Assembly: GCA_000092065.1 (NCBI GenBank)
Contig: CP000584.1
Strand: one strand, 5' to 3'
From: Ostreococcus lucimarinus
Lineage: Eukaryota
DNA: 64,000 bases
Shown here: positions 4,241 through 50,335 of the stretch, piece after piece
How positions within the stretch are numbered: the stretch's first letter is position 1
Layout: the number at the start of each line of letters is the position of its first letter
The notes under the pieces: model-generated
The model's database searches: none
Seen by the model: the letters and a program-made list of their open reading frames with translations, nothing else
What the model was told of the DNA's origin: nothing
Translations under genes and position numbers: made by a program

Positions 4241-4336
4241 GCGTCGTCATCGTCCGATCGCCTCACACCGCGTCGCGTCGACGCGCTCGACGACGCGCGC
4301 TCGATCGTTGAACGCGGTCGACGTCACCGCGATTCG

Positions 4337-5386: not shown

Positions 5387-5788
5387 CTAAGAAATCTTCT
5401 CCAGATACGCCGCAATCTTTCTGTCGTTCTCCGACAGCGCGCTCGGATCTCGCAACGCCTTGTCCCCGCTCTCCCACCGCAGGTAATCACCAAAATTTTT
5501 CTTGTAGTAGTCGTCCAACCGCTCTTGCTTTCGTTCCTCGCGCTTCTCCTCGCTCCGCGCCCGCAGGCGCTCGACGAACTCGGAGTTGGTCTCATTCGCC
5601 TCGAGCGCCACGCTCGCGGGCGCGGTCGAGGTGAGCGCGACGACGGTCGCCGCGAGCGCGCCGATCGCGACCCGCGCGGGGTGTCGTCGCTCGCGCGACT
5701 CGGCGCTGGACGCCGCGCGACGCCGCGCGGACGCCGACGTCGCGGGATCGACGCGCGCGGCGCGCGGCGCGCGAACGAGCGCGGGCAT
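5387..5788 (-). CDS. small hypothetical protein with bipartite (RR + hydrophobic + AxA) presequence, possibly thylakoid-lumenal
   Basis: The ORF runs 5387..5872, but the track start is GTG. The first ATG is at 5788. The presequence carries ...RERRHPARVAIGALAATVVALTSTAPASVA/LEA followed by a charged ~70 aa mature part. No family assigned. Confidence 0.35.
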   Translation of the reverse strand: MPALVRAPRAARVDPATSASARRRAASSAESRERRHPARVAIGALAATVVALTSTAPASVALEANETNSEFVERLRARSEEKREERKQERLDDYYKKNFGDYLRWESGDKALRDPSALSENDRKIAAYLEKIS

Positions 5789-5997
5789 CGGCGCGCGAAT
5801 TCGGGCGCTCGAGAATTTCGCGACGGCGCGTGACGCGTTCGAGCGCGGCGCGCGCGCGTCGCGCGACGCCACCAGGGTTTAAAGCGTCTCCGTTCGTCTA
5901 GCCTCGGGGGTTAAAAATTGCAACACCGACGACGAGGCGCGCCTCGTCGTCGTTTCGTTTCGCGTAATCTTCGTCGTCATCGTCGCCCTCGTCGTCG

Positions 5998-6587
5998 TCT
6001 ACGCGCCCATGTTCAGCGACATCAACTCGGCGAGCGTCTTCGTCTCGCGCAGGCGCGTGAGCTCGCCGCGGTGCGCTCGCTCCGTCTTACGAATCGACAC
6101 CGCGCCCCAGAGAAACGACGCGATCTGCGCGCGTTTCGACGCATCGTTCACCGTCAGTCGTCGCGAATGATTCGCCCGATTCGCCCGATTCGCCCCTCGT
6201 CGTCTCCCGTCGCCCCTCGCGTCGTCTCTTCGTAAACCTCGCTCGATCTCGCGCGCGGGGTCGCGTTCGCGTTCGCGTCACGATTCGCCCCGCCCGTCGC
6301 TTTCGTCGTCGCATCGCGCGAATCGCCATTCGTCCTCCCCTTCGCGCGTCTTTCGCGGTCGCGTTTCGATTCGCCCTCGACGCGTCGTTCGTTCGCCTCG
6401 CCCCACGCACCAGACACAGCAAAAACACCGTCGGCCCGTACCCCCACTTGCTCTCTCCCGGCGGCGGGTCCACGGCGTACACGACGCCGTCGATGATGAA
6501 CATCATCAGCGCCCACGCCGTCATGAACCACACGTTCGCGTTGCGTCCGATGAACGTGCTCTTCTCGAGCTCTTCCTTCGTCACCAT
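5998..6587 (-). CDS. small two-TM membrane protein (about 100 aa), two exons: 6411..6587 and 5998..6123
   Basis: ATG at 6587 (MVTKEELEKSTFIGRNANVWFMTAWALMMFIIDGVVYAVDPPPGESKWGYGPTVFLLCL). A GTGCGT donor follows immediately after the Leu codon at 6411. A GACTGACGG branch motif lies 28 nt before a CGCGCAG acceptor at 6124. Exon 2 continues in phase 0 as IASFLWGAVSIRKTERAHRGELTRLRETKTLAELMSLNMGA, with the stop at 5998. Without splicing the ORF runs into a 100-aa Arg-rich tail. Confidence 0.45.
6124..6410 (-). other. spliceosomal intron (287 nt) of the stereotyped GTGCGT...GACTGAC...CGCAG class; contains a 9-bp tandem repeat (CGATTCGCC x3)
   Basis: Donor, branch and acceptor motifs match the other introns found in this window. 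The intron carries a tandem repeat on the + strand at about 6170-6200. Confidence 0.45.
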
Positions 6588-6720
6588 GACGTGCGATGTC
6601 GTCGGCGCGCAGTGCCGGGTCGACGGCGGTCGACCTTTCGCGGCGGTCGGGGGTGAGGTGCGCGATCCGGGACGGGGATTTTTATGAAAACGACAGCCCG
6701 ATCGGTGTTTTGAGAACACC

Positions 6721-6810
6721 GTCGATCGCGACGCCGTCGATCGCGCGACGCCGTCGATCGCGATCGCGTCGATCGAGATCGCGCGATCGCGATCGATCGC
6801 GCGTCGACGC
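6721..6810. repeat. imperfect tandem repeat (CGCGACGCCGTCGAT-like units) in bidirectional promoter
   Basis: Direct repeats of gtcgatcgcgacgcc units are seen between the divergent genes at 6587(-) and 6913(+). Confidence 0.5.
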
Positions 6811-6912
6811 CGGCGTCGACGTCCATCCACGCGGCCGCCCATCCATTCGTCGGCGCGACGATTCGACGAGCGCGCGTCGCACACGTCGACGACGACGTCG
6901 ACGACGACGGCG

Positions 6913-8394
6913 ATGCCGACGGCGACGACGACGACGGCGTCGGCGACGGACGGGACGGCGGCGAAACGACGCGAGGGGGCGAAGACGACGAAGAAGACGA
7001 CGGGGAAGGCGACGACGACGGGGCAGGCGACGACGGCGCGTCGCGACGACGACGCGACGACGACGGCGACGACGACGACGGCGACGGCGACGGCGACGAC
7101 GACGAAGAAGAAGACGCGAAACGGCGCGAAGAGGGACGGTGGCGTCGGTGGGGACGCGGTGAAGACGGATTGGGCGAACGACGCGATGGGCGACGATCCG
7201 CGCGTCGAGGCGAAGGCGAAGGCGAACGCGCCGGCGAAGAACGGGAAGAAGACGCGCGGGAAGACGACGGCGACGGCGGCGACGACGACGCCGAAGAAGA
7301 AGGAGGCGAACGGGACGACGACGACGACGACGACGACGGGGATGGTGAAGAAGGCGCGAACGCCGCGAGCGGAGCGAGGGGCGCCTCGCGCGGCGGCGCC
7401 GGCGGCGAAATCGGCGACGCCGACGCGCGCGCCCGCGGTGGGACCGCCGATGACGATCACGCGGGGGGAGAGCGTGCAGAAGTGGTCGAACTCGACCACG
7501 CGCGCGGCTTTGCGCGTGGAGGCGTCGATTCGGGATTGGATTCGCGCCGACGGCGGGCGCGAGCTCGCGCGCGAGCTGCAAGAGGCGCTCTCCTGCGGCG
7601 ACGGTCACGTGACGATGCAGGTGTGCGAAGAAAGCGGGTCAGGCGCGCTTTTCGTGGGCTTACACTGCGGCGAAGCAAAGTTTGCGCACGCCCTGCAACG
7701 CGTGCACGCTCTGGTGGAAGTGAAGCTCGACGACTGCGTGCGCATTCGTCGACGCACGGGCGTGGCGGATATGCTGGAAAACGAACGAATGAAAATCCAG
7801 GCGGAAATCGACGCCGGACTTCGTTGCGAATTCACGCTCGGGTACAAGGCGATGCAAGACTTGCTGCTCGACGGCGGCGATAAGCTGAATCAAGTCAAGG
7901 AGGTGTGCGACGTCGAGCGCGTCGTCGTCGATCCTCGAAAGCGCACGATTCGCATCGTCGGCGCGGACGCCGCCGAAGTGTCTCGAGCGAGAGACATGCT
8001 CGAAGTCGCGTACGAAAGCATCGAAGACGTGCCAGAGTTGGCGTTGCGCATGATCATCGGTAAAGGTGGCGCCAAAGTGAACGACATTCAGCAGCGTACC
8101 GGAGCAAACATCAAGGTGGACTGGGACAAAAGCGCCGTCTTCATTCGCGGACCGCCGTCGGCGGTCAAGTCGGCGATGATTCTCGTCAAGTCGTGCATCA
8201 AGACGTACGAAGTGGAACATGTCGAAGTGACGTACGACCAACTCGACGAAGTTCGCGGCGAGCTCGCGCGTTTGGACATGGAATGGGGCGGAAGCCCGGT
8301 GCACTACGTCCAAGGCGGTCGCGGCGGCGGTCGCGGCGGCGGTCGCGGCGGCGGTCGCGGTCGTCGAAACGATCGTTCCTCCACGGCGGCGTAA
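6913..8394 (+). CDS. KH-domain RNA-binding protein with C-terminal RGG box and Thr/Lys-rich low-complexity N-terminus
   Basis: ATG at 6913. KH core IIGKGGAKVNDIQQRTGANIKV. C-terminal GGRGGGRGGGRGGGRGRR. The N-terminal ~170 aa are encoded by GAC/GGC/AAG-rich repeats, so the true start is uncertain. Confidence 0.65.
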   Translation: MPTATTTTASATDGTAAKRREGAKTTKKTTGKATTTGQATTARRDDDATTTATTTTATATATTTKKKTRNGAKRDGGVGGDAVKTDWANDAMGDDPRVEAKAKANAPAKNGKKTRGKTTATAATTTPKKKEANGTTTTTTTTGMVKKARTPRAERGAPRAAAPAAKSATPTRAPAVGPPMTITRGESVQKWSNSTTRAALRVEASIRDWIRADGGRELARELQEALSCGDGHVTMQVCEESGSGALFVGLHCGEAKFAHALQRVHALVEVKLDDCVRIRRRTGVADMLENERMKIQAEIDAGLRCEFTLGYKAMQDLLLDGGDKLNQVKEVCDVERVVVDPRKRTIRIVGADAAEVSRARDMLEVAYESIEDVPELALRMIIGKGGAKVNDIQQRTGANIKVDWDKSAVFIRGPPSAVKSAMILVKSCIKTYEVEHVEVTYDQLDEVRGELARLDMEWGGSPVHYVQGGRGGGRGGGRGGGRGRRNDRSSTAA

Positions 8395-13924: not shown

Positions 13925-14027
13925 GTGCGCTCGCGCGCGCGTCGTGCGTCGCGGGCGGCGATGGCGCGAAGAACGAGGCGAAGAGAGACTGACGAAGGCG
14001 CGACGCGGACAGGGTGGCTCGCCGCAG
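13925..14027 (+). other. candidate 5'-UTR intron (103 nt) of the ANK-CCCH gene, same stereotyped class
   Basis: A GTGCGC donor sits at 13925. The block gcgaagagagactgacgaagg is nearly identical to gcgaacgagagactgacggg in the GSK3 intron. A CCGCAG acceptor ends at 14027, 42 nt before ATG 14069. No in-frame upstream coding exon is possible. Confidence 0.3.
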
Positions 14028-26805: not shown

Positions 26806-29189
26806 CTAGTGCATGCGGGTGACGCGACGACCCTCGGCGCGTTCGGCGACGTCGCCGCGTTGCGTCATCACGAGCAAGGCGCGGGTGACGGCCCATTCGT
26901 TGACGCCGATGCGGGACAGATCGTCGATGAGGTGACGCTTGGACATGGTGGCGCCGATAGCGAGCTTTTGACGGATCTGCGTTTCGACGACTTGGAGCTC
27001 TTCGCGCTGTTCGGCGCTGAGGACGACCATATCGGCGACGCCCGAACGCGCGGCGTCGATGGTGGACACTTCGAACAAGCGCAACGCCTCTTGCACGTGC
27101 TCTTCGGTGACGGTGGATTGAAGGCACATCTTAGCCAACGATTCAGAGATTCGCACGATGGCTTCGAGTTGACGGACGGTGATCGGGACCGCGGCGTGGC
27201 CACCCGTGCGCTTGCGCTCGCGCATTTCCTCGCGATACTTGACGTACGAATCCTCTAACATGCGCATCGCCCGCTCACCCACGCGCGGCTTGCACATCGC
27301 TCGAGCGTACTCGATGTAGCGTTTCAAGAACTGACGTTCCTTTTCTTGCTGCGGATCTGCCGCGAGCGCGAGCTCATCGCCACCGCCGGCGTGAATATTC
27401 AACACGTGATCCGCGATTTGCATGTCGCGCTCGTACACTCGTTCGTCTCTGACGATGAAAATCATGTCGAAACGGGATAAAATAGTCGTTTGCAAATCGA
27501 TGTTCTCTTGTGCCGTTTTCAAATCGTCGTACCGCCCACTTGGAGGGTTCGCCGCGGCGAGCACGGCGGTTCGACTGTTGAGCATAGTCGTGATGCCCGC
27601 CTTGGCGATGGAAATCGTTTGCTGCTCCATGGCTTCGTGGATAGCGACACGATCTTCGTCGCGCATCTTATCAAACTCATCAATGCACACGCACCCGCCG
27701 TCTGCGAGTACCATGGCACCCCCCTCGAGATAGAACTCACCATTGCTGTCTCGAATCACCGACGCCGTGAGACCGGCGGCGGACGAACCTTTACCCGACG
27801 TGTACACGCACACTGGCGCCGTTCGTTCGACAAATTTCAAGAACTGCGACTTGGCAGTGGAAGGATCACCGAGCAAAAGCACATTAACATCGCCTCTTCG
27901 CGCTGTGCCATCCGGGTGCTCCTTGCGCGTGCCCGAGAAGAGCAAGCACGTCACCGCCGCTTTGATGTCGTCGCTCCCAAAAATCGCCGGCGCCACGCGA
28001 CTGCGAAGATCTTTCACAACGTCCTTAAACGGGCGATGGGCAAAGGTTTTGAACTCAGTATGCTCGGCATCAGTGAAATGTGCGTCGCCTCTAGCACCTT
28101 CCGTCTCTTCATCGATGCCTACGACTCGCAAATAGGCGTGCTGCACGGCGACTTTCCCTCCGCCGCGGTCGCGCTTGCTACTTCCACCTGCGTTCGTCGT
28201 CTCGTATACGCCCATGAGCTTCACGCGCGTGCCTGGAACGACCGATAAAACCATTGTACGTTCGACTAATACGGTCATGTTCCGCGGCATCTCCCCCGCC
28301 GGCACACACTCTGGGTTCTCTTGCAATTTCATATTCTGTTGGTCGATGAACGAACTCTTCTCCGGAACGATGCGATACGGATCCGTCCCGCACGGATTCG
28401 CCTCCTGCCCAACCTGTGTATCCCTACCAACCTGCGCTGAACAAAACCGAGGAACGTTCGCCCCGCTGTACCCTGCACCAAGATGAACCGAGATCGTGCT
28501 CTTGCACTTCTGACACTCGAGCGCCATATGCTTTGCCTTGGTTCTCGCCTTTGACGTCGCGATGACGATACCGGGTACGTACACCAACGTCCCCACATCG
28601 CTCGAATTCAAAGTCCTCAACGGGCGCGGAATCTCTTTCGACGTAAGTTTCACTTGCACGCTCGCCCGTCCCGGCGCCCGATCTCTCGACGCGCGATCCT
28701 CCTCCTCTAAGTACGCGTCCCCATCCGCCGCCGCCAACGCGTCGCTCGGTCGCAAGCTCTCCAACACGTCCTGCACCGCCTCCTCCAATATCGGCAAGTA
28801 ATCGTTCGGTTCCATTCGCATCGCTCGCGCTAATTCCGCATCGTGCGCGATCAAATCATCAAAGCATATCTTCAAATCCTTCGGCGTCGTCGCGCGATCG
28901 AGTTCATCTCTGTATTTGAGTCGCCCGTCCGGCGCGCTCGCGTCTGGTGCGCTTCGAAAGTTTCGCAAAAAGTCCACAAACTTCGCCCGCGCTTGGCTCG
29001 GCGTCACACCTCGCGCGCGCCGCGCTTCGAGATCGGCGTCGACGACCGGTTCGGCATCGGCGTCGTCGTAGACGTAATCTTCACCTTCGGCTGCGCGCGA
29101 AAATTTTGAAATCGTCAGTCGTCGAGTCGTCGCGCGCGTCGGTAGAGCGCGGTTTCGGGGCGATCGAGCGCGCGCGACGCACCGTCCAT
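26806..29189 (-). CDS. MCM5: DNA replication licensing factor MCM5; two exons 29183..29189 (ATGGACG) and 26806..29090
   Basis: MCM box (Walker A GDPSTAKSQ, IDEFDKM, arginine finger SRFD). The zinc finger/loop DPYRIVPEKSSFIDQQNMKLQENPECVPAGEMPRNM matches MCM5. The track start at 29007 is GTG. Upstream in frame, AAEGEDYVYDDADAEPVV aligns to the MCM5 N-terminus and runs into CGCGCGCAG| with GACTGACGAT 23 nt upstream. ATG GAC G|GTGCGT lies at 29189-29177. Confidence 0.9.
29091..29182 (-). other. intron (92 nt, phase 1) following a 7-nt first exon
   Basis: GTGCGT donor, GACTGACGAT branch motif, TTTTCGCGCGCAG acceptor. Shares tgactgacgat/aaaatt blocks with the SMC2 and CDCA7-like introns. Confidence 0.6.
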
Positions 29190-44234: not shown

Positions 44235-44762
44235 ATGGACGCGTCCACCTTCCGAGCGTTCCGCGACCGCGGCGCCTTCGCCCCGCACGAACAGACGAAA
44301 ACGACCACCGACGACCCATCGCGCCGTCCTTCGTTTCACGACGCCGAGCGCGCGACGCGCAGCACCGCCGACCAAGCGTCGCATTCGGTCCCAGTCGGTC
44401 GGTCCCAGTCGCCGCGTCGACTCGACGGCTGGCCCGAGGAAACTCGACACATCAATATCGGCGCTCGCACCGTTCACTGGCGCCGATCCCACACGCGCGC
44501 GACGCTGCAGGCGTTGATGTGGTCGGGCGTCGTCGCGACGTCGTGCTGGTGCTACCTGCGCGTCAGCTCCGTCAGCGGCGCGCTGCTCCTCGGCGCGTGC
44601 GTGTTCGCCAAGGCGAGCTTCGACATGCTGGTCGCGCTCAGATCGTCGAAGAGCGAGACCACCGCGAATTGGTACGTCGAGGACGCGAACGAGGCCGTCC
44701 ACACGGGACCATTCGTGACGCCGCGGTACGGCGCCGAGGACGGCCGAGCCGAAGCCGCGTAG
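44235..44762 (+). CDS. possible small membrane protein (low confidence)
   Basis: The ORF runs 44040..44762. The first ATG is at 44235. A hydrophobic stretch LQALMWSGVVATSCWCYLRVSSVSGALLLGACVFA is present. It could instead be 3' UTR of the B55 gene. Confidence 0.2.
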   Translation: MDASTFRAFRDRGAFAPHEQTKTTTDDPSRRPSFHDAERATRSTADQASHSVPVGRSQSPRRLDGWPEETRHINIGARTVHWRRSHTRATLQALMWSGVVATSCWCYLRVSSVSGALLLGACVFAKASFDMLVALRSSKSETTANWYVEDANEAVHTGPFVTPRYGAEDGRAEAA

Positions 44763-44983: not shown

Positions 44984-45320
44984 ATGCTTCGAGAGATCGC
45001 TAAGCGAGTGATTCCGCGAAAGCAGTGGGCGGCCACATACGTCGATACCATGCCCGTGCGTGCGCGGTGACCGGTGACGCGCGCGCGCGACGTTTTAATT
45101 CGCTCGGGACACGGCTCGGGTGAGCTTCGTTTTATCGACAGAAAAGACTGACGACGACGCGCTTCGTGCGCTGAACCGCGCGCAGAGCATGCGACACGCG
45201 AGAGGCGCCGCGCGATGGGGCGGAGTGGCGGTGTTTGGGTTGTTTTGGTTGATCGGGGACGAGTCGTTCGCGTGGGCGAAGAGCGTCGTCGTCGGCGGAG
45301 CCTCGGAGGAGGAGGAATAG
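44984..45320 (+). CDS. candidate unannotated 68-aa single-TM protein with acidic tail; exons 44984..45055 and 45186..45320
   Basis: ATG at 44984 (MLREIAKRVIPRKQWAATYVDTMP). A GTGCGT donor sits at 45056. GACTGACGAC lies 33 nt before a CGCGCGCAG acceptor at 45185. Exon 2 reads SMRHARGAARWGGVAVFGLFWLIGDESFAWAKSVVVGGASEEEE in phase 0. Confidence 0.35.
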
Positions 45321-48348: not shown

Positions 48349-49152
48349 CGGACGGACCGCGCGACGACGGACCGCGCGCGACGAATGCGCGCGATGACGG
48401 CGCGCGGCGCGCGACGATGCGCGACGACGCGCCGAGCGTCGACGCCGGAGGCGCGGGAGGCGAGCGATGGGAGCTTTGAGTGGTATCGCGAGCCGCAACG
48501 CGTGGCGACGGCGTGCGCGTGGGTGGCGCTCGGGTCGTTCGCGACCTTCGGGGCGCCGAGCGGGACGTCGGCGTTCGATTTAGAGCTCGTGAAATCGCTC
48601 GTGAGCGCACCGTTCACGGGGGCGGTGAACCCGTTGTTCGAGGCGTTGTTCAATTCGCTGGGCGTCGTTCCGGCGACGTACGCGTGCTTGATGATGCCCG
48701 GCGCGAAGGGGAATAAGTCGCCGTTTCCCGCGGCGCTGTGCGTCGGCGCGAGCTTTGCCCTCGGCTTTTTCGCGCTCGGACCGTATTTGGTGACTCGCGA
48801 GCCGCGAACGAGGGTGAAGAGGAGCGAATTAGGATTCGTGACGAGAAATATTTGGGAGAGCAAGCTCAACGCGGCGGCGTTGTTAGGATTCGCGGCGTAT
48901 CTGGCCTTTTACGGCGCCTCGAACGTGACGCCTGACACGCTCGCCGGTTTCGCCACGCTTTTCAAAGAGCAATCCATGCTCGCGTGCGTGAGCACGTGCG
49001 ACTTGATCGTCCTCTCGCTGTGCGTGGCGCCCGCCATCGCCGAGGACATGCGTCGCAGAGACGTCGACGACGCCAACGCCCTCGCGTTCGCCAGCGTCCC
49101 CGTCCTCGGTCCGGCGTGCTGGCTTCTCGTGCGTCCATCGTTAGAGGATTAA
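48307..49152 (+). CDS. hypothetical multi-TM membrane protein with Thr/Arg-rich presequence
   Basis: ATG at 48307. Four to five hydrophobic segments. No family assigned. Confidence 0.5.
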   Translation: MTMTTMTTTTTMTIRTDRATTDRARRMRAMTARGARRCATTRRASTPEAREASDGSFEWYREPQRVATACAWVALGSFATFGAPSGTSAFDLELVKSLVSAPFTGAVNPLFEALFNSLGVVPATYACLMMPGAKGNKSPFPAALCVGASFALGFFALGPYLVTREPRTRVKRSELGFVTRNIWESKLNAAALLGFAAYLAFYGASNVTPDTLAGFATLFKEQSMLACVSTCDLIVLSLCVAPAIAEDMRRRDVDDANALAFASVPVLGPACWLLVRPSLED

Positions 49153-49293
49153 ATTCACTTATCGCGGTATTCTTTCGTCCATCGTTCGTCCGCGTCGACG
49201 CGCCCGTCGAGATTTTTCTAGATTTTTTCCTCCACTGGGCAAACAGTCACGCGACGTGAACGTCGACCTCCCTCTGGCGCTCGTCCTCAGAGC

Positions 49294-50335
49294 ATGTCTC
49301 GCGCCGCCGCCCGCCTCCTCGCCCGCGCCGCCGCCGCGCCCGCGCCCGCGCCCGCGCCGCCCGCGTCCGCGCGCGCGATCGCGAGCGCGGCGAACGACGC
49401 GACGTTTTCTTTCGGAAAAGCGCAAGCCCAGTTTTACGATGACGTCCTCGTCGATGGCGTCTTCAAGCCCTGGACGGAGAGCGTGTTCGCGACGTCGCGA
49501 CCGGTGACCGGTGACGCGGTCTTAGACGTCGCGTGCGGCACGGGCGTGGTGGCGCGCGAGTGCGCGGCGTTGGTGGGAGAATCGGTGGGTGACGGTCGAG
49601 CGCGGACGTCCCGAAGCGCCGCGAAGACGCGTCCCGAAGCGAAGAAGCGAAACGAAACGGCGACTGACCGCGGACGCGCGCGTTCGGTGGACGCAGGGTA
49701 AAGTGACGGCGATCGATAACTCGCCCGGGATGCTGGCGCGCGCGAAAGCGAATCCGGCGTCGAGAGGTATCGAGTATTTGGAATTCGACGCGTGCGCGCC
49801 GACGCTCCCGCGGCGCGCGTTCGATCGAGCGTACTGTCAGCAAGGCTTACAGTTCATGGCGGACCCCACGGCGGCGATGAAAGCGGTGCTGTCGAGTTTG
49901 AAACGAGGTGGACATTTCACGTGCGCGGTCTGGGCGCCCGCGAATTCGAGCGAGAATCAAATCATCTACCACCTCGGCGAGGCGCTCAGAGACGTCGGGC
50001 GCGAAGACTGGGTCGACGTCGCCGTGAAACCGATGAGCTGGTCCAACACCGACAGTCGCGGAGTGTCGAAATTAGAAGATTGCTTGATCGAAGCGGGGTT
50101 CATCAATCCCGACGTCGCGTGCGAGGACGGCACGTTCGCTTTCGATGACTTGACCCAAGCCGTGGACATTGCCAAAGTCGGCCCCTACGGCGAAGAGTTG
50201 GCGTCGGACGACGCCTTGTGGAGGGAATTTTCCGAAAACTTCCGCGCGCGTTTGAAGATGTACGTGCAAGAAGACGGCCGCGTCGTCGTTCCCGCGCGCT
50301 CTTTCATCGGTCACGGCGTCGCGCCGTGGAATTAG
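49294..50335 (+). CDS. class I SAM-dependent methyltransferase (Methyltransf_11-like), organelle-targeted; exons 49294..49584 and 49697..50335
   Basis: Motif I VLDVACGTGVVARECAALVGES is interrupted by a frame shift between two track ORFs. Splicing the GTGGGT donor at 49585 to the GACGCAG acceptor at 49696 gives ...ALVGES|GKVTAIDNSPGMLARAK (post-I motif) in phase 0. Confidence 0.75.
49585..49696 (+). other. intron (112 nt)
   Basis: GTGGGT donor. CGACTGACCG lies 28 nt before the acceptor. The 3' block GCGCGCGTTCGGTGGACGCAG is near-identical to the SMC2 intron 3' end GCGCGCGTTCGGTCGAACGCAG. Confidence 0.7.

What the first reader, a model, noticed from the sequence alone, without database searches (positions are those of the whole stretch)
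5998..6587. A small two-TM protein gene is hidden behind a 100-aa Arg-rich pseudo-tail that is really an intron
The track ORF (6087..7499-) ends in a long Arg/Thr-rich tail. A GTGCGT donor immediately follows the first hydrophobic helix. A GACTGACGG...CGCGCGCAG acceptor lies 287 nt downstream. The downstream exon continues in phase 0 with a second hydrophobic helix plus an amphipathic C-terminus, giving a protein of about 100 aa. I could not place it in a family (DPM2/DPM3, SPCS1, PIG-P and RAMP4 were considered and are not convincing). The intron also carries a 9-bp tandem triplicate.
Basis: partly seen in the sequence, partly recalled or inferred. Interest (0 to 1): 0.5.

Follow-up and report, generated by a model that had tools for sequence, protein, structure and literature searches.

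The report
Ordinary annotated intron in small membrane-protein gene

Summary
On the minus strand, exon 1 is 6587..6411 (59 codons). A 286-nt GT-AG intron follows at 6410..6125. Exon 2 is 6124..5999 (41 codons plus TAG). Spliced in phase 0, they give a 100-aa protein.

That protein is 100% identical to XP_001417413.1 of Ostreococcus lucimarinus CCE9901, so the model is already annotated. The donor GTGCGTG and the branch motif GACTGACG (branch A 29 nt before CAG) match the published consensus for this species' introns outside chromosome 2.

Four orthologous Ostreococcus loci have an intron at the same codon boundary with the same signals. Their exons are conserved, but their introns differ in length, sequence and reading frame. 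Metatranscriptome-derived sequences read straight across the junction.

Two corrections: the intron cuts the second transmembrane helix, not the end of the first, and it is 286 nt, not 287.

The protein belongs to a narrow family seen only in Mamiellophyceae-type algae. The gene is unsplit in a Bathycoccus-like genome. UniProt's name 'YiaAB two helix domain' could not be reproduced with Pfam. A profile-profile comparison gives only a weak signal above the null. Function remains unknown; a hairpin membrane protein with a cytosolic basic C-terminal helix is inferred.

The parts
6588..6613 (-). Inferred 26-nt 5' UTR, with the mRNA 5' end at A6613
   Evidence: Two metatranscriptome-derived sequences (P0002, P0007) begin ...YQRRVHGD-CAPTTSHV-M. 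Joining the SMART template-switch oligo (sequence from my memory), one non-templated G and the genome from 6613 translates to exactly that string. This is an inference, not direct mapping.
6411..6587 (-). Exon 1 coding sequence, 59 codons: N-terminus, TM1 (about residues 19-39), the DPPPGESKWGYGP loop and the first half of TM2
   Evidence: GC3 is 0.92. It is 100% identical in L002 and 92% identical in L003 without indels.
6125..6410 (-). Spliceosomal GT-AG intron, 286 nt, phase 0. It is purine-rich (G 0.42, A 0.25, T 0.08) and has no polypyrimidine tract
   Evidence: It is absent from transcript-derived and annotated proteins. Orthologous introns of 246, 286, 280 and 235 nt sit at the same position. 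They are 40-57% identical between clades, with 36-51 gap columns.
6404..6410 (-). 5' splice site GTGCGTG
   Evidence: It is identical to the published consensus for O. lucimarinus introns outside chromosome 2 (PMC2483917). GTGCGT is present in all five orthologous loci.
6152..6159 (-). Branch-point motif GACTGACG, with the branch A at 6154, 29 nt before the 3' splice site
   Evidence: ACTGAC is found in 87% of EST-confirmed non-chromosome-2 introns and GACTGACG in 66.5% (PMC2483917). ACTGACGG is conserved in all five loci, 23-30 nt from the acceptor.
6125..6127 (-). 3' splice site CAG
   Evidence: The orthologues have CAG or TAG.
6169..6195 (-). 9-bp x3 perfect tandem repeat (GGGCGAATC on the gene strand) inside the intron
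   Evidence: It is present in the near-identical strain L002 but absent from L001, L003 and L004, so it looks like recent slippage rather than a conserved element.
6261..6278 (-). 6-bp x3 tandem repeat inside the intron. The intron also has an imperfect ~54-nt internal direct repeat (6401..6352 against 6317..6266, about 80% identical)
5999..6124 (-). Exon 2 coding sequence, 41 codons plus TAG (6001..5999): second half of TM2, the basic RKTE..H..EL.RLRETK helix and the invariant C-terminus TLAELMS.NMGA
   Evidence: GC3 is 0.90. No indels in any orthologue. The C-terminal 15 residues are nearly invariant across the family.
6087..7499 (-). Mechanical 470-aa ORF (the 'track ORF'), which is not a gene. 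It joins the antisense of the neighbouring gene, intergenic DNA, exon 1 and the intron read in frame
   Evidence: The KH-domain gene lies at 6913..8394 on the + strand.

Best explanation
This is an ordinary two-exon nuclear gene of Ostreococcus lucimarinus CCE9901, already annotated as XP_001417413.1 / ABO95706.1 (UniProt A4RVF1).

The primary transcript starts about 26 nt upstream of ATG 6587. The U2-type spliceosome removes a 286-nt intron (6410..6125), which carries the species' consensus signals: 5' GTGCGTG, branch GACTGACG 29 nt upstream, and 3' CAG. Splicing joins codon 59 to codon 60 in phase 0, in the middle of the second transmembrane helix.

The 100-aa product is a helical-hairpin membrane protein. 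It has a short acidic or neutral N-terminus, TM1, an 11-13-residue loop rich in Pro and Gly, and TM2. TM2 continues without a break into a basic helix of about 30 residues that ends in the invariant ...ETKTLAELMS(L/I)NMGA.

By the positive-inside rule, both termini face the cytosol and the short loop faces the lumen or the outside. The invariant C-terminal helix is the most likely partner-binding or self-association surface.

The gene structure, the splicing and the conservation are shown. The topology is inferred from sequence. The biochemical role is unknown.

The Arg-rich 'tail' is what an ORF finder reports when it reads a G/A-rich, T-poor intron that happens to lack in-frame stops.
For: Identity
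- The spliced product is 100/100 identical to XP_001417413.1.
- No contiguous ORF in the window encodes it.

Splice signals
- GTGCGTG and GACTGACG match the published O. lucimarinus non-chromosome-2 consensus (PMC2483917).
- The composite signal is enriched in the window, 6 observed against 1.46 expected.

Comparative evidence
- O. tauri L001 and three uncultured Ostreococcus loci (L002-L004) share the gene order (AAA gene, a large gene, this gene, a small ORF, TrpA). All carry an intron at the identical codon boundary with GTGCGT, ACTGACGG and YAG.
- Intron lengths are 246, 286, 280 and 235 nt, with length mod 3 of 0, 1, 1 and 1.
- Between clades the introns are 40-57% identical with 36-51 gap columns, while the exons are 68-97% identical and exon 2 has no indels.
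- Read-through tails differ in frame and length: they stop after 7, 44, 105 or 107 residues. Near-identical strains already differ in frame (P0008, P0010, P0013, P0015).

RNA evidence
- P0002 and P0007 come from MERC, which was assembled from 775 Tara eukaryotic metatranscriptomes. Both read LCL|IASFLW and keep a template-switch-oligo remnant at the 5' end.
- P0001 (UniRef A0A7R9XP36, O. 'lucimarinus') and the Crustomastix MMETSP0803 peptide P0053 are continuous across the junction.

Coding signal
- GC3 is 0.92 and 0.90 in the exons against 0.63 in the intron.

Protein
- AlphaFold2 with 12 sequences gives mean pLDDT 78.7, with helix 17-36, a loop, and one helix 52-99 running through the junction.
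- Net charge is 0 at the N-terminus, -1 in the loop and +3 at the C-terminus, which has 7 K+R.
Against: - I could not retrieve the reference record's CDS coordinates. The look-up of encoding contigs has no entry for P0070. That the annotated model uses exactly this intron therefore follows from protein identity, not from reading the join statement.
- No RNA-seq from strain CCE9901 itself was examined. The transcript evidence comes from environmental near-identical populations and from a related culture.
- P0002 has assembly irregularities: it lacks R71 and reads past the stop.
- The counts of synonymous and non-synonymous codon changes between close clades are small and not strongly skewed (5 syn / 7 non-syn in exon 1 against L003). 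Purifying selection is therefore shown mainly by deep conservation (53% identity to the Bathycoccus-like sequence, 32% to Crustomastix).
- Nothing tested here shows what the protein does or which membrane it sits in.
Confidence: 0.93

Rival explanations
1. There is no intron. The real product is the read-through protein, either exon 1 plus a 107-aa Arg/Thr-rich tail (166 aa from ATG 6587) or the full 470-aa ORF.
For: An uninterrupted ORF exists. Prokaryote-style gene callers report such products on many metagenome contigs (P0008-P0028).
Against: - The tail is not conserved. Its frame, length and sequence change between near-identical strains, and it stops after 7 residues in L004.
- In-frame GC3 falls from 0.9 to 0.63.
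- Exon 2 is conserved down to Crustomastix only when spliced.
- The transcript-derived sequences are spliced.
- All read-through variants come from DNA assemblies.
Confidence: 0.01
2. The intron is real, but intron retention is regulated and yields a second, functional isoform or an NMD-type switch.
For: In the window and in L002 the retained intron has no in-frame stop, so a 166-aa product is possible. Intron retention is the commonest type of alternative splicing in plants and algae (general knowledge).
Against: - The open frame is not conserved in O. tauri or L004, which each have 2 in-frame stops.
- No transcript-derived read-through sequence was found among 74 family hits.
- The intron has no conserved internal block apart from the splice signals. 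It has no excess RNA structure (z = +0.54) and no Rfam match.
Confidence: 0.04
3. The protein is a true, very divergent eukaryotic member of the bacterial YiaA/YiaB two-helix domain family (PF05360), as UniProt's automatic name for A4RVF1 says.
For: - UniProt names it so.
- hhalign of the algal family against a profile of YiaA/YiaB repeats gives probability 54%, P = 1.2e-4 and score 26.5. The alignment is in register (TM1, loop, TM2, then the basic (R/Q)KT.R motif).
- Controls score lower: 200 segment-preserving column shuffles give mean 13.5, SD 3.1 and maximum 23.3, and the reversed alignment gives 13.9.
- The architecture is the same: two TM helices with a short loop.
Against: - Pfam's own PF05360 model hits none of 9 family members even at E <= 10, while it hits E. 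coli YiaA at 7e-40.
- Unfiltered hmmsearch gives at most 10 bits.
- One-to-one hhalign against YiaA gives probability 0.5%.
- An exhaustive HMMER search of 1.84 billion representatives and a second profile search found no bridging sequence and no hit carrying PF05360.
- The YiaAB hallmark GLWNA...EKG(Y/F)Y is not present.
- My YiaAB profile was built from enterobacterial sequences only.
Confidence: 0.3
4. The intron is a copy of a mobile, repeated intron family (an introner element), as in Micromonas.
For: Related Mamiellophyceae carry introner elements (PMC4540971, listed). The intron is absent from the Bathycoccus-like orthologue. It contains internal repeats.
Against: - blastn of the intron against the 64-kb window finds no other copy, only short low-complexity matches.
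- The intron is present at the same site in all Ostreococcus clades examined and has diverged to 40-57% identity, so it is old, and there is no sign of recent invasion.
- Only this window was searched, not the whole genome.
Confidence: 0.02

Closest known systems
XP_001417413.1 / ABO95706.1 / UniProt A4RVF1, predicted protein of Ostreococcus lucimarinus CCE9901
   Same: 100% identical over all 100 residues to the spliced product of 6587..6411 plus 6124..5999. It is the same gene.
   Different: Nothing at the protein level. The reference gives no function. The UniProt name 'YiaAB two helix domain-containing protein' is automatic.
Canonical non-chromosome-2 spliceosomal introns of O. lucimarinus (Irimia & Roy 2008, PMC2483917)
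   Same: 5' GTGCGTG, the extended branch motif GACTGACG near the 3' end, a YAG acceptor, G+C-rich sequence and no polypyrimidine tract.
   Different: At 286 nt it is longer than the species median of 111 nt and mean of 168 nt reported there. Otherwise it is typical.
O. tauri hypothetical protein BE221DRAFT_87053 (P0004) and its locus L001
   Same: 78% identical, 102 aa, the same neighbours, and an intron at the same codon boundary with GTGCGT, ACTGACGG and CAG.
   Different: The intron is 246 nt and only about 40% alignable. The N-terminus is two residues longer.
YiaA/YiaB two-helix domain (Pfam PF05360), inner-membrane proteins of E. coli with unknown function
   Same: A two-TM hairpin with a short loop, followed by a basic motif just after TM2. 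There is a weak profile-profile signal above the null.
   Different: - No Pfam hit, no bridging sequences, and the GLWNA/EKGYY motifs are missing.
- The bacterial proteins carry two tandem copies and lack the long conserved C-terminal helix.
   Same: Similar size and hairpin architecture. DPM3 also has a C-terminal helix after two TMs (from general knowledge).
   Different: None of their Pfam models matches any family member at E <= 1-10. No sequence relative outside the algal family was found in 1.84 billion representatives.

Membership tests
U2-type GT-AG spliceosomal intron (O. lucimarinus non-chromosome-2 class) | GT...AG boundaries with the species' 5' consensus GTGCGTG | tested here: met
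   GTGCGTG at 6410..6404 and CAG at 6127..6125. Consensus from PMC2483917.
U2-type GT-AG spliceosomal intron (O. lucimarinus non-chromosome-2 class) | ACTGAC / GACTGACG branch-point motif near the 3' end | tested here: met
   GACTGACG at 6159..6152, with the A 29 nt from the 3' splice site. It is conserved in all five orthologous loci at 23-30 nt. Motif frequencies of 87% and 66.5% are reported.
U2-type GT-AG spliceosomal intron (O. lucimarinus non-chromosome-2 class) | Absent from mature mRNA | tested here: met
   The metatranscriptome-derived P0002 and P0007 and the culture-derived P0001 read across the junction. RNA-seq from CCE9901 itself was not examined.
U2-type GT-AG spliceosomal intron (O. 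lucimarinus non-chromosome-2 class) | Evolves without coding constraint while the flanking exons are conserved, and its position is shared by orthologues | tested here: met
   Introns are 40-57% identical with 36-51 gap columns and varying length mod 3. Exons are 68-97% identical. The phase-0 position is the same in L001-L004.
Introner elements (repeated intron families of Mamiellophyceae) | Many near-identical copies of the intron sequence elsewhere in the genome | tested here: not met
   There is no second copy in the 64-kb window. The whole genome could not be searched.
YiaAB two-helix domain, Pfam PF05360 | Score at or above Pfam's gathering threshold (26.6 bits) against PF05360 | tested here: not met
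   No PF05360 hit for 9 family members at E <= 1-10. The positive control, E. coli YiaA, scores 135.5 bits. My own repeat HMM run without filters gives at most 10 bits.
YiaAB two-helix domain, Pfam PF05360 | Significant profile-profile similarity, or bridging sequences linking the two families | tested here: inconclusive
   hhalign gives probability 54% and P = 1.2e-4, with score 26.5 against a null maximum of 23.3 in 200 shuffles. No bridging sequences turned up in two large profile searches.
YiaAB two-helix domain, Pfam PF05360 | Two TM helices joined by a short conserved linker | tested here: met
   TM1 at 17-36, a loop at 37-51 and TM2 from residue 52. This architecture is generic, and the linker motifs differ (GLWNA..EKGYY against DPPPGESKWGYGP).
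   The window protein has zero Pfam families at E <= 1. None of these families appears for 8 relatives at E <= 10.
2TM domain, Pfam PF13239 | Score at or above the gathering threshold (24.8 bits) | tested here: not met
   Only one member (P0005) matches, at 16.1 bits and E = 0.012. The window protein does not match.

The most novel reading that the evidence does not exclude
Two mildly novel readings remain open.

(a) The family is a highly diverged eukaryotic offshoot of the bacterial YiaAB two-helix domain. That would give this uncharacterised bacterial inner-membrane family a conserved algal branch with an added, invariant cytosolic helix.

(b) The intron was gained in the Ostreococcus stem lineage, in the middle of a transmembrane-helix codon run. 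The Bathycoccus-like and one other lineage have uninterrupted genes. The Bathycoccus-like gene carries GTGCGTC just 4 nt from the equivalent site, which hints at a proto-splice site.

Neither reading is excluded, and neither is demonstrated.
Probability: 0.25. Interest if true: 0.25.

Novelty: already known. Interest (0 to 1): 0.08.

Why it matters
It matters little beyond quality control. The case shows that a reader with no tools can recover a correct eukaryotic gene model from splice signals alone. It also shows that prokaryote-style ORF calling on picoeukaryote DNA produces families of spurious Arg-rich 'proteins': dozens of such read-through entries are in the metagenome protein databases (P0008-P0033).

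The protein is a conserved small membrane protein of unknown function, restricted to Mamiellophyceae. It could be worth a localisation or knock-out experiment in O. tauri, but nothing here suggests an unusual mechanism.

Tried and rejected
- Pfam scans of the product and 8 relatives gave no family. The only sub-threshold matches are generic membrane hits.
- A PDB sequence search with the family profile gave nothing below E = 5.
- The first AlphaFold run, with 6 sequences, was poor (pLDDT 64).
- Intron as host of a snoRNA or other RNA: no Rfam match inside the intron, and folding energy no better than shuffles. Rejected.
- Intron as a dispersed repeat or introner: no other copy in the window. 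Rejected within the limits of the window.
- PQQ-like beta-propeller repeat proteins (P0055-P0069) matched the profile at E = 1e-7 to 1e-3 through a short VYAVDxxxGxxKW-like motif. I judged these spurious, because they are repeats in soluble proteins matching a TM-loop stretch.
- The reference locus could not be retrieved by exact protein look-up.
- A literature search for the accessions and for 'YiaAB' found nothing relevant.

Full report
**1. The observation**

Reading the minus strand of 5700..7700 and assembling the pieces gives the following.
- An ATG at 6587 opens exon 1, 177 nt (6587..6411, 59 codons).
- GTGCGTG follows immediately at 6410..6404.
- GACTGACG lies at 6159..6152, and CAG at 6127..6125.
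- Exon 2 is 126 nt (6124..5999) and ends in TAG (6001..5999).

The intron is 286 nt (6410..6125, length mod 3 = 1) and the junction is phase 0. The spliced product is exactly 100 aa:
MVTKEELEKSTFIGRNANVWFMTAWALMMFIIDGVVYAVDPPPGESKWGYGPTVFLLCL|IASFLWGAVSIRKTERAHRGELTRLRETKTLAELMSLNMGA

The mechanical ORF 6087..7499(-) of 470 aa exists. The 9-bp x3 tandem repeat is at 6169..6195.

Third-position G+C is 0.92 and 0.90 in the two exons, against 0.63 for the intron read in the same frame.

Three details need correcting.
- The intron is 286 nt, not 287.
- The feature ends at 5999, not 5998.
- The donor is not at the end of the first hydrophobic helix. Hydropathy puts TM1 at about residues 19-39 and TM2 at about 50-70, so the intron interrupts TM2 between residues 59 and 60.

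The part of the 470-aa ORF upstream of 6587 is intergenic DNA plus the antisense of the low-complexity 5' end of a KH-domain gene at 6913..8394(+).

**2. What it is**

A search with the spliced product returned full-length relatives.
- A UniRef entry from Ostreococcus 'lucimarinus': 98% identical, 100 aa.
- An annotated O. tauri protein, BE221DRAFT_87053: 78% identical, 102 aa.
- Environmental sequences of 100 aa, 75-77% identical.

All of these read ...FLLCL-IA(S/A)F... straight across the proposed junction.

The cluster look-up showed that the same 90% cluster contains XP_001417413.1 / ABO95706.1, 'predicted protein [Ostreococcus lucimarinus CCE9901]'. BLASTP shows it is 100/100 identical to the spliced product. 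The window is therefore O. lucimarinus CCE9901 DNA, and the two-exon model is already in the reference annotation. No contiguous ORF in the window can encode that protein.

**3. Evidence that the intron is real and spliced**

*(a) Signals.* Irimia & Roy 2008 (PMC2483917) analysed EST-confirmed O. lucimarinus introns outside chromosome 2. They report that 87.2% contain ACTGAC, that 66.5% contain the extended GACTGACG, and that the 5' boundary has 'the atypical consensus GTGCGTG'. The intron here has all three, base for base. The composite pattern occurs 6 times in the window against 1.46 +/- 1.37 expected from a first-order Markov model.

*(b) Comparative anatomy.* I fetched four orthologous loci: O. 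tauri RCC1115 (L001) and three metagenome contigs of 46-67 kb (L002-L004). They share the gene order AAA-ATPase, a large gene, this gene, a small ORF, tryptophan synthase alpha. All have an intron at the identical codon boundary. Each begins GTGCGT, carries ACTGACGG with the A 23-30 nt before the acceptor, and ends CAG or TAG.
- Intron lengths are 246, 286, 280 and 235 nt.
- Between clades the introns align at only 40-57% identity, with 36-51 gap columns.
- The exons are 68-97% identical, and exon 2 has no indels.
- Apart from the splice signals there is no block conserved in all five.
- Reading through the donor gives tails that stop after 7 residues (L004), 44 (O. tauri), 105 (L003) or 107 (window and L002).
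- Even near-identical strains differ in tail frame (P0008, P0010, P0013, P0015).

*(c) RNA.* P0002 and P0007 come from MERC, which was assembled from 775 Tara Oceans eukaryotic metatranscriptomes (bioRxiv 10.1101/386110). Both read LCL|IASFLW. Both also start with ...YQRRVHGD followed by CAPTTSHV-M. The second string is the window sequence just upstream of the ATG. The first is the translation of the SMART template-switch oligo (oligo sequence from my memory). Oligo plus one non-templated G plus the genome from A6613 reproduces the string exactly. These sequences are therefore cDNA-derived, and they place the mRNA 5' end about 26 nt upstream of the ATG.

Every read-through variant among the 74 family hits comes from DNA assemblies.

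*(d) Nothing else lives in the intron.*
- No Rfam match lies inside it.
- Its folding energy is no better than that of shuffles (z = +0.54).
- There is no second copy in the window.
- The 9-bp triplication is shared only with the near-identical strain L002. It is recent slippage in a purine-rich (67% A+G, 8% T), low-complexity intron.

**4. The protein and its family**

An exhaustive HMMER profile search of 1.84 billion cluster representatives found about 25 genuine relatives, all of the same small family. A second profile search with a broader alignment found 74, again all from the same family and none with a Pfam domain.

Members outside Ostreococcus are:
- a 103-aa protein on contigs with about 50% G+C, including one of 948 kb, which looks Bathycoccus-like (L007, L008);
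- 98-100-aa proteins from other environmental lineages;
- a 93-aa peptide from the Crustomastix stigmatica transcriptome MMETSP0803.

In L007/L008 and in L009 the gene is a single uninterrupted ORF of 312 and 297 nt. Among the lineages sampled, the intron is therefore confined to Ostreococcus. Whether that reflects a gain or losses cannot be settled here. L009 is a Logan assembly of unknown library type.

Conserved features are:
- F.GRN before TM1;
- W25 and L27;
- D/G at 33-34 inside TM1;
- the loop PPGE..W.YG;
- W65;
- the SIRKTE motif;
- the nearly invariant C-terminus ETKTLAELMS(I/L)NMGA.

AlphaFold2 with 12 sequences gives mean pLDDT 78.7, with helix 17-36, a loop, and one continuous helix from 52 to 99. 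Charge distribution is 0 at the N-terminus, -1 in the loop and +3 at the C-terminus, with seven K+R. By the positive-inside rule this suggests that both termini are cytosolic. There is no N-terminal extension that could serve as a transit peptide, because conservation starts at about residue 4. This topology is inferred, not shown.

**5. Family placement**

Pfam gives no hit for the product or for eight relatives, even at E <= 10. The PDB sequence search and the structure searches were uninformative.

UniProt's automatic name, 'YiaAB two helix domain-containing protein', is the only lead. I tested it as follows.
- E. coli YiaA scores 135.5 bits against PF05360, but no algal member scores at all.
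- hhalign of the family against YiaA alone gives probability 0.5%.
- Against a profile of 32 YiaA/YiaB repeat segments, hhalign gives probability 54%, P = 1.2e-4 and score 26.5, in the expected register.
- 200 column shuffles that preserve the TM/loop/TM layout give mean 13.5, SD 3.1 and maximum 23.3. The reversed alignment gives 13.9.
- Unfiltered hmmsearch gives at most 10 bits.

There is therefore a signal beyond generic hairpin similarity. It falls well short of membership, and no bridging sequences exist in the databases searched. I rate true YiaAB homology at about 0.3. Even if true, it says little about function, because YiaA and YiaB are themselves uncharacterised.

**6. Verdict**

What they describe is a canonical, previously annotated intron in a previously annotated gene.

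The novelty class is 'already known' and interest is low. The residual open points are modest:
- the function of a conserved, Mamiellophyceae-restricted hairpin membrane protein;
- whether it is a remote YiaAB relative;
- whether the Ostreococcus intron was gained.

Noticed in passing
window 13944..14012 (+), 45056..45185 (+; alternative donor at 44597), 49129..49696 (+), 29182..29091 (-): Four other places carry the full O. lucimarinus intron signature (GTGCGT, then ACTGAC 12-30 nt before YAG). Each has one open reading frame across the hypothetical junction. With the finding's intron this makes 6 sites, against 1.46 expected. They are probably real introns of neighbouring genes.
   Followed up: partly
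L007/L008 3001..3312 (Bathycoccus-like intronless orthologue), around codons 58-61: The uninterrupted gene reads ...ATG GTG TGC GTC GTC.... It therefore contains GTGCGTC starting 4 nt upstream of the position equivalent to the Ostreococcus splice junction. O. tauri's intron begins GTGCGTCG. This could be coincidence in a Val/Cys-rich helix, or a proto-splice-site hint for intron gain.
   Followed up: no
window 6588..6613 (-): Two metatranscriptome protein assemblies keep the translated template-switch oligo (YQRRVHG) fused to the genome sequence starting at A6613. This implies a 26-nt 5' UTR. The oligo sequence is recalled from memory.
   Followed up: yes
window 6719..6801: CGATCG-rich tandem repeats (periods 15-17 and 38) fill much of the 325-nt divergent intergenic region between this gene (ATG 6587, -) and the KH-domain gene (ATG 6913, +). 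Weak sub-threshold Rfam matches here are most likely low-complexity artefacts.
   Followed up: no
window 6883..7338: Long trinucleotide-periodic repeats (ACG/GAC type, 80 and 25 copies) encode the Thr/Lys/Ala-rich low-complexity N-terminus of the KH-domain protein (6913..8394 +). Several other reading frames across this stretch, on both strands, also stay open, which is why the spurious 470-aa ORF extends so far upstream.
   Followed up: partly
window 5387..5872 (-): A small ORF (161 aa from a GTG start, probably shorter from an ATG) lies just downstream of the gene. A small gene is called at the same position in every Ostreococcus locus (133, 133, 127 and 86 aa). It has no Pfam family. It looks like another conserved orphan.
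   Followed up: no
intron: window about 6238..6229; L001 about 4306..4315; also L003: A 10-mer, GCGAGGTTTA, is shared by the introns of O. lucimarinus, clade L003 and O. tauri, although the introns are otherwise barely alignable and very T-poor. It is absent from L004. This could be residual common ancestry or a small intronic element.
   Followed up: no
database entries P0008-P0033 and P0039 (ENA/JGI metagenome gene calls): Dozens of clusters in the public metagenome protein collections are artefacts of this one locus. They are exon 1 fused to translated intron, translated intron fused to exon 2, or both exons bridged by a stop-free intron (P0039, 195 aa). They illustrate how prokaryotic gene callers mis-annotate picoeukaryote DNA.
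   Followed up: partly
P0002 (MERC, ERR1712216_872145): This metatranscriptome assembly lacks Arg71 (SIKTE instead of SIRKTE). It also continues past the stop codon into translated 3' UTR with one residue missing. These are probably protein-level assembly artefacts.
   Followed up: no
whole window: G+C per 2 kb ranges from 0.52 to 0.72. The first 14 kb is the richest, and several later stretches are near 0.52-0.55. I did not determine whether this reflects gene density, low-complexity coding repeats or proximity to an atypical chromosome region.
   Followed up: no
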